This document shows, one piece after another, positions 640 through 45,427 of a stretch of 64,000 nt of DNA. This stretch comes from Octopus vulgaris (taxonomy: Eukaryota): positions 116,808,001 through 116,872,000 of the forward strand of contig OX597821.1 of assembly GCA_951406725.2 (NCBI GenBank), written 5' to 3'. Position 1 is the first letter of the stretch. The number at the start of each line of letters is the position of its first letter. The notes beneath the pieces are model-generated. The model saw nothing but the letters and a program-made list of their open reading frames with translations. It ran no database searches and had not been told where the DNA came from. A program made the position numbers and the translations under genes.

Positions 640-2060
640 CGGAATGCGTTCTGATGTGGCCGGTGATTTATCTTTAATTCCCGCCAAGATGTATTTTGTA
701 TAATGTGGACATGAAGAAATCTTGATGTGTCTAAAAGTTGAAAGATGGTTGTTGTATCTGAATTTAAATTATCCCTCCACAGATCCTACATAACATTTGG
801 TATCAGTTCGGCTCTTGGCATAGTTTGCCGACGCTTGTGCTTCATTAACAACGGAGGATATATTATGTGTCTGCCCTAGAGGAGATTTAGATTTAGCACT
901 GTATGTGGATCCAGGACAGATTCGATTTCTATACCTATGGTTGTTGGGAGAGTGATTATTTAATAAGAGTAAAGATTTTCTATCTATATTTGTTCCAACA
1001 TTTAGGGAGAAGAGTGGGGTGAACCACAAAATATTGCGGGGTCTAATCTTACTACTTGATGGTTGAGGAGGAGGAGGGTTATAAAATATTTTATCAATGA
1101 AGCGGCTATCCTGTGAAACATTATTATAATATGAGGATGGCTTTTCAGATATTTCTCCAAATGAAAACATGTTATTGATTTTCTGGCTAATGTTGGGAAT
1201 TTAGTTTCTAAATATAATAGGTAGGTGATAAAAGTATTTATTGATATATTTTACATTTTCTTTAGGCTCATAGGATTGGTCTTTAGGTCTAGGGAAACAT
1301 CTAATCCTTCAGTTTATTTAGGTTAGTGTGAACTGTTTTCGGAAGGAATCCATAGCGCAGCCTTCACAATTGTGCTACACTGCCAAAGCATTGTCCTAAT
1401 AAATACAAATACCTTGGTTAGAGAATTTAAATGGTTTGATATGTACAAACTAATCAAATCGCATATAAGGGTGTACTGAAAAGTGCCTGGCTTTAAGGGA
1501 GGCCCAATCTTCCGAGTTGTTTTCCAACGCTTAAGAACAACTGAAGGACCGCTGCAATAAGTGTGTGGGTCTAAGAGAGAAATCGGCTGAATAAAATCAT
1601 AATTAACTGATTCTCCGGTATTTTCTTTTACCCAAAGCCAAAAACTTTTCCGCGCCCTCTCGTATATCTGCGCTTTTATCTGAGCACATTGGGATATCAA
1701 ATAGTTCACAAGTGTTATCATTTTTAGCTTGAACAGATCCGCCACAAAATAACGGCGTTTTACAAGTGTTCGTAATGAGGCGTATTTCTTGCTCATCAAT
1801 GATTACAAATAGACGCGCAAACGGCAATGCATTACGCAGCAGGGATTCGGATATTGACGGATAGAAATTCACAATGTCATAAAGTGTGAATTTTGCTTTT
1901 CTTGTATTGTGGTAGGACTGGAACCAACATATCACCGAGAAGATATCTGTCCATAGCAACGGGTTGGAAGATGCCTTAATTTTATTATTACTTGTCCTTA
2001 GCATTTTGGGCTCACTAAACCTAGCTCTGTCTTTGTCGGGTTGATTAGTTGGCATTTTGG
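640..2060 (-). mobile_element. Degenerate Penelope-like retroelement (RT + C-terminal GIY-YIG endonuclease), pseudogenised
   Basis: Minus-strand frames give YDIVNFYPSISESLLRNAL, FDIPMCSDKSADI|CDLISLYI (= FDVTMGSYDGAEVCELVGLY), a decayed catalytic Y*DN, RNILWFTPLFSLNVGTNI and KCYVGSVEG*FKFRYNNHLSTFRH. These are PLE RT, linker and GIY-YIG motifs, with stops and frameshifts. Confidence 0.88.
1466..1664 (+). mobile_element. Mariner-derived MITE inserted in the PLE RT
   Basis: Imperfect TIRs (agggtgtactgaaaagtgcctggcttt / aaagccaaaaacttttccgcgccctct) with TA flanks and an internal remnant of a mariner transposase C-terminus. A second copy lies at 39116-39339. Confidence 0.85.
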
Positions 2061-2557
2061 TTAGGTTTAGGATATTTCAGTAAGGACTAAGTAAGGATCA
2101 GATACTGAAATAGTTTGGAATCGAAGGGCCCCACAACTGGTTGTTAATATCTTACAAAAAAAAAAAATCAGAAAGATCTACATGGAGTTGGGATACATAT
2201 TTCTAAGAAGCACCTTGACTTTCTTCTTTCCAAGGTCCCAGGTGAACCTATATCACAATGAGAGAGTCAAATGAAGGCAACAATATCAAACTCTCTCATC
2301 CGTGAAAAGCCAACCATATGAGAATGGCCACTGAAAAAGTGGGCGGGGAGGGGGACTGAAAAAGCGGTGCCCAAATATGGCCGCAAACTTTGGCCTGGTA
2401 CATGGCAGACTTCGACTTTTTTTTTATCCAAAGATTTCTTTTAATCCAATATTTACTCACAACTATGTATAGATTTATCAGTTTCGAGTTAAACCGTTCC
2501 AAAAAAGAATTATTTCATGTTCTCTCGAAGTTTCCAAATTTGTATGAGGTCAACTAG

Positions 2558-43760: not shown

Positions 43761-44858
43761 AGAAAGAGACTTCTTATTTTCTTTCTTATATTTAGTATTG
43801 GTTTCAAATTTTGGCACAAGGCCAGAAATTTTGGGTGAGGGGTGTAAACCAGTTATATCAACCCCCAATACTCAACTGGTACTTATTTTATCGACCCCGA
43901 AAGGCAAAGTCAACCTCGAAAGGCAAAGTCGAACTCAGTGGCATTTGAACACGAAGATGGACGAAGTGCCACTAAATATTTCATCTGGCGTGCTAACGAT
44001 TCTGCTAGCTCTCCACCTTTCTTATATTTGCTATTATAAGCCTATTGGTTTTGCCCGTTACGTATCACAATTTTATTCCTATATTTACTTACTGCTTCTT
44101 CCCTATATTAGCAACATGAAATTCTTGTTCGTCGCACCTTATAAGAGCACACCTTTTCATGCAAGTCTGACGAAGTGCCACTCCAATGTAGTTAACCGTA
44201 AATATTGAGCAACAGCAAGGTCAGGGATCTCATCAGAGGCTACTTGTTCCATGGTCGAGTGGTCGGCGACTAAATCGGCTACCCCTCTGGAGTAGCTTGC
44301 TACTCTTGTGAGGAGGGTCTCCGGACACCTAGCTGGACTAAAAACAAGACCTGTCGAAGGGCAGATGACTTTCTTGTGTGCCAACGGACACCAAATTGGG
44401 GAAGATAGTGGCAAACCACTTCAGTATGTCTGTCAAGAAAATGTTATGAGAAAGTCAGAACGAAGTAACGCTATGGCTTTCATCCGTTGGGAGAACTTGC
44501 GTTTAATCGGGAAGACTTTTGTTGTAGTGTCATCAACGCTCAGCAAAAGCGTTCGATACATGACGACAACGAAATATCAAGTAAATTTTTGCGTAAAATC
44601 ATTTTATAAAAACGGGGCGGTACTGAAACGATTGTAAGTAATAACAGAAATGCGCTGAAATTCATTCTTCGTGTCCTTATTTGGATTACATGTTGCTATT
44701 CATAAGACCCATATATATGTGGCAGTCCCATGAAGGGAATAATACTACTTCTATTTAGCCCTAGGAAGCTGCACTGCTTCCTATCGGCCTTGACACATTT
44801 CCTGTGTCCTTATGTTTATAAGGGGGAGATAAGCACTCCCACCCAGCTAAGCCAGCAC

Positions 44859-44899
44859 CCGGAGACTAGTTTCTGAGCCACTGCTAGTCTTCAGTCTGG
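44859..44899 (-). ncRNA. Minimal type-I hammerhead ribozyme (left arm)
   Basis: ccaga-CUGAAGA-cu-agc(agug)gcu-ca-GAAA-CUAG-UC-uccgg. Confidence 0.68.
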
Positions 44900-45050
44900 A
44901 GTAGCATGGTTTCCTAGTTGGAGATGTCTATCTAGAGAGATTTAGAAATGTATTATTTCTATTCTTGAAATCAGTGAATGTATTTCACTAGAATTCATAT
45001 ATGTTTACAGGGACTAGACAAGCATCTCCAACTAGCAGGCCATGCTACAG

Positions 45051-45089
45051 CAGACTGATGACGAGGGAAGACTCAGAAACTAGTCTCTG
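45051..45089 (+). ncRNA. Minimal type-I hammerhead ribozyme (right arm)
   Basis: caga-CUGAUGA-c-gag(ggaaga)cuc-a-GAAA-CUAG-UC-ucug. Confidence 0.75.
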
Positions 45090-45427
45090 GGTCCAGGCTT
45101 AGCTGGGTGGAGGTTCTTGTCTCCCCCTTGTAAACATAAGGACACAGGAAATATGTCAAGGCTGACAGGAAGTGGTGCTGCTTCCTAGGGCTAAATAGCA
45201 GTAGTATTATTCCCTTCATGGGACTGTCATATTAAGTTGACAGCATACAACTACTTTATATAGTTGAGCTTTTGGGGCTTTTGCTCAATAAACATTCACA
45301 ACGCCCGGTCTAGGAATCGAAACCGTGATCCCACGACCGTGAGTCCGCTGCCTTAACCACTGAGCCATTGCGCCTCCACATGTAACCAATAAGAAGACGA
45401 GATCATTATGACTGCAATGATCATAAA

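What the first reader, a model, noticed from the sequence alone, without database searches (positions are those of the whole stretch)
44718..45231. MITE-shaped fold-back element with an outward-facing hammerhead ribozyme in each inverted arm
Seen: ~210-bp inverted arms around a ~90-bp AT-rich spacer. The right arm (+, 45051-45089) reads caga-CUGAUGA-c-gag/cuc-a-GAAA-CUAG-UC-ucug, and the left arm (-, 44859-44899) reads ccaga-CUGAAGA-cu-agc/gcu-ca-GAAA-CUAG-UC-uccgg. The arms differ at many positions, including stem II, yet both catalytic cores are intact. Established: PLEs carry minimal type-I HHRs whose helix III is reduced to a palindrome and which cleave as dimers, and PLE insertions can include inverted pLTRs. 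Inference: this is either a head-to-head pLTR pair or a non-autonomous palindromic ribozyme retroelement disguised as a DNA MITE. Transcription in either direction would give an RNA with one HHR plus its own antisense, competing with a long dsRNA (ADAR/Dicer substrate).
Basis: partly seen in the sequence, partly recalled or inferred. Interest (0 to 1): 0.75.

Follow-up and report, generated by a model that had tools for sequence, protein, structure and literature searches.

The report
Back-to-back retrozyme copies, not a MITE
The fold-back is two back-to-back pieces of a common 352-base non-coding repeat that carries a predicted self-cutting RNA motif, likely pasted in by a Penelope-type retrotransposon enzyme; it is an ordinary insertion scar of a known kind of genomic parasite, not a two-armed element of its own.

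Summary
The inverted arms (219 nt, 85%) and both hammerhead cores are real, but this is not a MITE-like unit. The right arm plus the 'spacer' is one copy (44935-45258) of a 352-bp head-to-tail monomer with hundreds of ~89%-identical copies; it runs 26 nt past the 'TIR'. The left arm is a 5'-truncated inverted second copy. Of 89 motif-chosen loci, 41 are head-to-head, with scattered junctions; only 6 carry two whole opposite ribozymes. Inverted arms do not form a clade (AU p=3e-5). Arms end at two fixed points about 55 nt apart, one per arm (23 of 24): the Penelope 'tail' footprint. The arm differences are best explained by decay plus a 126-nt conversion tract shared with a copy 830 kb away. 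The left ribozyme has private breaks in stems I and II. The family's core and a long rod are under structural selection. End motifs and two junctions point to a Neptune/Nematis-type Penelope family as mobiliser. Cleavage and expression are untested. Verdict: a new, older family of non-LTR retrozymes; the scan has already noted younger families with this footprint elsewhere in this genome.

The parts
44935..45258 (+). Forward copy of the 352-bp monomer U (reference positions ~30-354), ending at the family's short 3' end (S end)
   Evidence: BLAST and alignment to 28 other loci, 88-95% identity; end position
44717..44935 (-). Inverted, 5'-truncated second copy of U (positions ~110-328); its outer ~80 nt (the expected tailed end) are missing
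   Evidence: no remnant elsewhere in the window
44927..44935 (.). Inversion junction with short microhomology; a nearly identical junction is seen in L002 and L006
44936..45013 (+). The 'spacer': 5' part of U, holding the motif at which tailed copies end (T end, 44954-44962)
45051..45089 (+). Minimal type-I hammerhead motif: stem I 45051-54/45086-89, core from 45055, C10.1-A11.1 mismatch (45062/45075), 3-bp stem II, 6-nt palindrome 45079-84, predicted cut after 45085
   Evidence: sequence; column counts; folding
44860..44899 (-). Second hammerhead motif; core intact but with private pair-breaking changes at 44886 (stem II) and 44861 (stem I); likely decayed
45000..45138 (+). Long rod (about 40 bp) that closes the ribozyme, with compensatory changes between subfamilies
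   Evidence: (I8)
44965..45090 (+). 126-nt stretch identical to locus L004 (same contig, ~830 kb away), with 7 shared rare letters; likely gene-conversion tract
44711..44718 (.). (TA)n run at the left end; TATA also follows the right end (to 45262); likely target, no clean TSD
45263..45379 (-). Head of a tRNA-type SINE-like repeat, cut off at the right end of the insertion (flank, not part of the element)
   Evidence: 'tRNA-type' is my reading of the A/B-box-like sequence, not a tool result

Best explanation
This is one insertion of a 352-bp non-coding hammerhead repeat (non-LTR retrozyme type) made of a forward monomer and a truncated inverted copy, likely written by a Penelope-like (PLE) reverse transcriptase/GIY-YIG enzyme that primed on both cut strands of a TA-rich target. 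Shown: multicopy monomer, head-to-tail junctions, variable inversions, two fixed 3' ends used one per arm, TA targets, structural conservation of core and rod. Inferred: (1) both strands were extended on U RNA, one from the short end (S) and one from the tailed end (T), and the two cDNAs were joined at a microhomology; (2) the left arm's tailed end was lost later or primed internally; (3) the arms started alike (both of the CUGAAGA lineage) and the middle of the right arm was later overwritten by conversion from L004; (4) the mobiliser was the Neptune/Nematis-type family PLE-B or a close relative; (5) in the source RNA the ribozyme would cut weakly, as a dimer through its palindrome. At this locus it is likely inert: the left copy is decayed and a read-through RNA would fold as dsRNA.
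For: Multicopy: 2799 first-look candidates, 40 scored; 142 exact core matches. Head-to-tail joints 45254-45259 to 44935 with a 26-31-nt linker in contigs of runs X15, X16 and X18. Architecture: 41 of 89 loci head-to-head, junctions spread over the monomer, 23 of 24 with one S and one T end. This matches 'inverted 5'-truncated copy' and 'tail often at one end only' (PMC8557442), and a PLE protein that cuts and extends both strands and starts at two sites bounding the tail (PMC11167929). TSDs of 6-13 bp seen by eye in some copies, e.g. L117, L122, L009. Both arms lie in the same major subfamily in 9 of 9 two-arm loci; inverted arms as one clade rejected. Conversion: A-type letters at 34-76 and 269-352 but B-type plus rare shared letters at 91-215; run ranks 1 of 4546 pairs, median 27. 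Selection: core variation 2.7% vs 7.0% (P=0.042) and 3.9% vs 7.5% (P=0.028); 0 of 31 core+stem columns among 55 subfamily differences (P=0.004); compensatory pairs 103:227, 107:223, 115:215. Mobiliser: PLE-B tailed copies end in the same 9-nt motif as U, S-T spacing 53 vs 56, similar age; U abuts PLE-B ORF breakpoints in L080 and L112.
Against: No cleavage assay and no RNA evidence. No autonomous PLE with a U-like pLTR was found (0 of 30 GIY-YIG loci; 2 of 25 PLE-B loci hold U, one being the seed, both as junctions). Long tandem arrays are rare (2 of 89 loci with two or more tandem ribozymes), unlike the published retrozyme definition. This locus lacks the expected T end. Core-only conservation between subfamilies is not significant (P=0.13), and the 31-column set was chosen after seeing the data. 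L004 was picked as a top BLAST hit, which inflates its rank, and the window's two arms as sisters are not rejected (AU p=0.129). Nearest-neighbour energies favour a non-catalytic fold (monomer -11.9 vs -3.9 kcal/mol; active dimer -15.6 vs two monomers -23.8). No excess of copy ends at the cut site.
Confidence: 0.85

Rival explanations
1. A palindromic two-ribozyme element (MITE-like) that spreads as a unit.
For: Three loci (window, L002, L006) have nearly the same junction, and L148 has a similar inverted piece, 112-325.
Against: Their arms belong to different subfamilies; holding those three left arms together is rejected (AU p=1.7e-4). L002's arms share a private core mutation. Outer ends differ, with the tail on one side only. 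6 of 89 loci have two whole opposite ribozymes. The junction recurs at a short palindrome, a plausible hotspot.
Confidence: 0.03
2. The arms come from two different template RNAs (template switch, or a second insertion next to the first), with no later conversion.
For: The left arm groups with the CUGAAGA lineage and the right arm with L004; arm identity 85.4% is below the young-family mean of 89.3%.
Against: The right arm is itself a mosaic whose flanks are of the left arm's type, and the shared tract is with a copy on the same contig 830 kb away. Other two-arm loci range 83-94%, so decay alone covers much of the gap.
Confidence: 0.12
3. U is the pLTR of a rare autonomous PLE, and these are solo or truncated pLTRs rather than a self-standing non-autonomous family.
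For: Ribozyme-to-end distances resemble those of PLE-B (172/228 vs 160/211-213 nt); solo minimal hammerheads were ascribed to truncated PLEs (PMC4209133).
Against: U's 3' end runs straight into U's own 5' end in tandem copies and in run contigs; no ORF upstream of an intact monomer in 146 loci.
Confidence: 0.08
4. The two-arm locus is functional as dsRNA (ADAR/Dicer substrate) or as a regulated ribozyme switch.
For: Predicted whole-element hairpin of about -365 kcal/mol.
Against: The differences between the arms are not compensatory, and any head-to-head copy (41 of 89) folds this way.
Confidence: 0.05

Closest known systems
Metazoan non-LTR retrozymes (PMC7229834, passages; bioRxiv 10.64898/2026.07.22.740005, parts 1-2 of 5)
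   Same: Non-coding monomer of ~350 nt, one type-I hammerhead per unit, head-to-tail repeats, proposed PLE origin; mostly monomeric families are reported
   Different: Minimal rather than canonical ribozyme; mostly 1-1.8 units with inversions; older (about 89% identity); circular RNA and cleavage untested
PLE insertions with inverted 5'-truncated copy and one-sided tail (PMC8557442, passages; PMC11167929, passages)
   Same: Partial tandem, inverted upstream copy, two fixed ends, TA-microsatellite targets
   Different: No ORF; tail about 55 nt rather than 30-40
Minimal PLE hammerheads (PMC4209133, parts 1-2 of 4)
   Same: Core letters, palindrome in place of helix III, short stem I, pairs on opposite strands 100-700 bp apart
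   Different: No single bulge plus G10.1-C11.1; the first stem-II pair is A-U, U-U, U-A or C-A by subfamily (U10.1-U11.1 is reported in PMC3088659, passage); stem II is short; a long rod closes stem I
DNA MITEs (definition recalled)
   Same: Long inverted arms, no ORF, TA context
   Different: No fixed ends or fixed internal part; the right copy runs past the 'TIR'; arms have independent ancestry

Membership tests
Non-LTR retrozyme | Non-coding monomer of a few hundred nt with one type-I hammerhead | tested here: met
   352-bp monomer with one motif; no ORF of 100 aa or more overlaps 44717-45258
Non-LTR retrozyme | Head-to-tail tandem organisation | tested here: met
   Partial tandems are common; two or more ribozymes in tandem in 2 of 89 loci and 3 of 28 older loci; joints in run contigs. 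This locus holds no tandem pair.
Non-LTR retrozyme | Canonical hammerhead with loop 1-loop 2 contacts | tested here: not met
   Minimal type with a C-A mismatch at 10.1-11.1; no Rfam match. The 2026 preprint admits minimal models.
Non-LTR retrozyme | Self-cleavage and circular RNA | not testable with these tools
   No assay possible; copy ends not enriched at the cut site
PLE-mobilised insertion | Inverted 5'-truncated copy at the 5' end | tested here: met
   41 of 89 loci
PLE-mobilised insertion | Optional tail, at one end only | tested here: met
   23 of 24 loci with both ends classifiable; this locus has the S end and a truncated other end
PLE-mobilised insertion | TA-rich or microsatellite targets | tested here: met
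   Flanks listed; read by eye, not counted against a background
Autonomous PLE | RT + GIY-YIG ORF between pLTRs | tested here: not met
   tblastn hits in 3 of 146 U loci, none an ORF upstream of an intact monomer
Minimal PLE hammerhead | Core letters and palindromic 15.2-16.2 | tested here: met
Minimal PLE hammerhead | Bulge after A9 and G10.1-C11.1 pair | tested here: not met
   An extra letter on both sides; the two covary as a pair across subfamilies
DNA MITE | Fixed TIR ends, constant TSD, whole unit multicopy | tested here: not met

The most novel reading that the evidence does not exclude
The family preserves fossils of hammerhead action in vivo. At L150 both arms carry U up to its cut site joined to the 3' end of a different hammerhead-bearing PLE-type family (V) at V's own cut site, so cleaved RNAs of unrelated elements would be swapped (religation or end-to-end RT jumping) and PLE priming signals traded at the ribozyme. 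In addition, a ribozyme whose 10.1-11.1 pair moved through A-U, U-U, U-A to C-A would still cut in the youngest lineage.
Probability: 0.15. Interest if true: 0.6.

Novelty: new member of a known kind. Interest (0 to 1): 0.28.

Why it matters
The locus itself is an ordinary scar, and it shows that 'MITE-like' fold-backs in this genome can be Penelope-type retro-insertions. The family adds modest genomic support to the proposal that animal retrozymes are moved by PLEs, names a candidate partner (PLE-B), and offers a natural series of 10.1-11.1 variants and one cut-site chimera that can be assayed.

Tried and rejected
Rfam: whole window at E<=1 (150 of 313 rows shown, none a hammerhead) and the element alone at E<=10 (hairpin look-alikes only). 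Sequencing runs: no RNA holder listed; laid runs were contigs of unknown or guessed kind, and no listed piece spans the central junction; none of this bears on expression. Autonomous partner: the young 781-aa PLE family (PLE-A) has different ends and no U match; rejected as partner. Cut-site enrichment: breaks to foreign DNA after position 181 in 2 of 10 matches; after 182 in 0 of 21 (one flagged row is an internal deletion further on); after 180 in 3 of 33 (one internal deletion, one microsatellite, one foreign); no enrichment. One search used core columns off by one and gave a failed alignment fold; its statistics are replaced and only its column table is used. The automatic S-end distance mis-hit in 7 of 9 PLE-B rows and found none in one; only L092 is used. 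An 18-nt SINE match left of the insertion may mean a ~175-bp target deletion; not resolved. The paper on dimer-cleaving hammerhead variants (PMC5785218) could not be read, so C10.1-A11.1 may be described there. Five paper searches listed no paper on this family or on cephalopod retrozymes; Repbase, Dfam and all supplements were not seen.

Full report
Observation. The arms are real: 44717-44935 and 45014-45232, 219 nt, 85% complementary. Each carries CUGA(N)GA, GAAA, a CUAG palindrome and UC, facing outward, with the predicted cut after 45085 on the right. Rfam gives no hammerhead match. The genome is 2.8 Gb; 'cephalopod' is my inference from its repeats and from the scan's earlier notes, not a tool label.

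What it is. A search of the own genome gave 2799 candidates, 40 scored. Most match only query 225-551, that is the 'spacer' plus the right arm plus bases beyond the 'TIR'. Alignment defines a 352-bp monomer, U, whose 3' end runs into its own 5' end; the same joint appears in contigs of runs X15, X16 and X18. The window holds one forward monomer (44935-45258) and an inverted copy of positions ~110-328. A 31-nt core pattern has 142 exact matches and 0 in the control. It fits 10 of 30 BLAST-chosen young ribozymes, so about 400 or more young copies are inferred, plus older subfamilies (young-old identity 81%, within-group 89%).

Architecture. I mapped 89 pattern-chosen loci. Of the 100 listed matches, one locus was dropped as a duplicate, 6 already fetched under one search were not counted and 2 were not fetched; 42 more were not listed; L197 and L198 look like duplicates of each other. 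Of the 89, 41 are head-to-head, 6 have two whole opposite ribozymes and 2 have tandem ribozymes; junctions are scattered. Outer ends pile up at two points, S (~354) and T (~409). Where both ends are classifiable, one arm ends at S and the other at T in 23 of 24. Passages of PMC8557442 describe inverted 5'-truncated copies, a tail at one end and TA targets as PLE traits. Passages of PMC11167929 report a PLE protein that cuts and extends both strands and initiates at two sites bounding the tail. PMC4209133 (parts 1-2 of 4) already notes minimal hammerheads 100-700 bp apart on opposite strands. Our locus has the S end on the right; the left arm stops ~80 nt short of T at a TA run, and one run contig confirms that boundary.

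Not a unit. In a tree of 26 chosen arms (all 95 arms), the nine inverted arms need nine label changes. One clade is rejected (p=3e-5), also for the three loci with the near-identical junction (p=1.7e-4). In 9 of 9 two-arm loci both arms lie in the same major subfamily.

Why the arms differ. The left arm is of the CUGAAGA lineage. The right arm has that lineage's letters at 34-76 and 269-352 but L004's letters between, including 7 rare ones. The 126-nt identical run (44965-45090) is the longest of 4546 pairs (median 27; 3 pairs reach 100), and L004 lies 830 kb away on the same contig with unrelated flanks. Gene conversion is inferred. Caveats: L004 was selected by similarity, and sisterhood of the two arms is not rejected (p=0.129).

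The ribozyme. In the family, the core varies less than the rest (2.7% vs 7.0%, P=0.042; 3.9% vs 7.5%, P=0.028). None of 31 core and stem columns is among 55 subfamily differences (P=0.004, set chosen afterwards; core alone P=0.13), and the closing rod shows compensatory changes. Copies share ancestry, so these P values are rough. The first stem-II pair is A-U in 8 of 9 of one older lineage, U-U in 27 of 34 of another, and C-A or U-A in 18 and 7 of 25 young copies; 23 further rows were mixed or unassigned. The order of these states is inferred, not rooted. U-U is a known tolerated variant (PMC3088659, passage). Both window arms have C-A, and the left arm adds breaks in stems I and II. Folding favours a non-catalytic monomer and, for read-through RNA, pairing with the other arm; these energies omit tertiary contacts. 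PLE minimal hammerheads cut poorly even as dimers (review PMC6765202, passages).

Mobiliser. The genome has several PLE families with RT, a CxxxxCxxC motif and GIY-YIG, the Neptune/Nematis type. The young PLE-A has other ends. PLE-B, of similar age to U (84-93% identity), ends its tailed copies with the same 9-nt motif, with similar spacing. U pieces abut PLE-B ORF breakpoints in L080 and L112. This suggests shared machinery but does not prove it; the motif is AT-rich. No ORF-bearing U was found.

Cut-site chimera. At L150 both arms join U at C17 to the 3' end of family V (990 candidates) at V's own predicted cut site, with S and T ends again one per arm. V's palindrome reads CCAG or CTGG in 17 of 19 copies and CTAG in 1, while L150 keeps U's CTAG, so the crossover falls in the last three letters before the cut. 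A homology-driven template switch explains it too, and breaks are not enriched at this position. It is one anecdote.

Comparison and verdict. It works like a PLE-mobilised non-LTR retrozyme (PMC7229834, passages; bioRxiv 10.64898/2026.07.22.740005, parts 1-2 of 5). It fails the canonical-ribozyme feature and is untested for cleavage and circles. It is not a MITE and not an autonomous PLE. Five searches listed no paper on this family; the giant squid paper only counts Rfam hammerheads (passages); supplements and repeat databases were not seen. Earlier scan notes report younger 360- and 485-bp families with the same footprint in this genome but no sequence look-alike of U. New member of a known kind; interest 0.28.

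Noticed in passing
L150 (G000:C3:116938130-116938339): Both arms join U at its hammerhead cut site to the 3' end of another hammerhead-bearing family (V) at V's cut site.
   Followed up: partly
L207-L225: Family V: PLE-type ends with tail and inversions; minimal hammerhead-like motif with a U3-A8 core pair, a U-U first pair in stem II and a CCGG palindrome decaying at its CpG.
   Followed up: partly
L092-L114, 3' UTR of PLE-B: Hammerhead-like motif whose 3-8 core pair covaries between copies: A3-U8 in some, G3-C8 in others.
   Followed up: partly
L037, L042 and other rows: Very young PLE family (PLE-A) with many intact 781-aa frames, a 3' UTR of short tandem repeats and no hammerhead match by my scan.
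   Followed up: partly
L080 (=L091) and L112: U pieces joined directly to breakpoints of PLE-B ORFs; possible template switches.
   Followed up: partly
window 769-2076 (-): Decayed reverse-transcriptase-like fragments that resemble PLE/Naiad RT by eye; no Pfam match for 1603-2073.
   Followed up: partly
L064, about 900 bp upstream of U: An unrelated hammerhead motif with a 5-bp stem II and a 6-nt palindrome.
   Followed up: no
L197 and L198 (G000:C10, 61 kb apart): Same insertion structure in both; likely a local duplication.
   Followed up: no
window 44693-44710 and 45263-45379: Pieces of one SINE-like repeat on either side of the insertion; if they belong together, ~175 bp are missing at the target.
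   Followed up: partly
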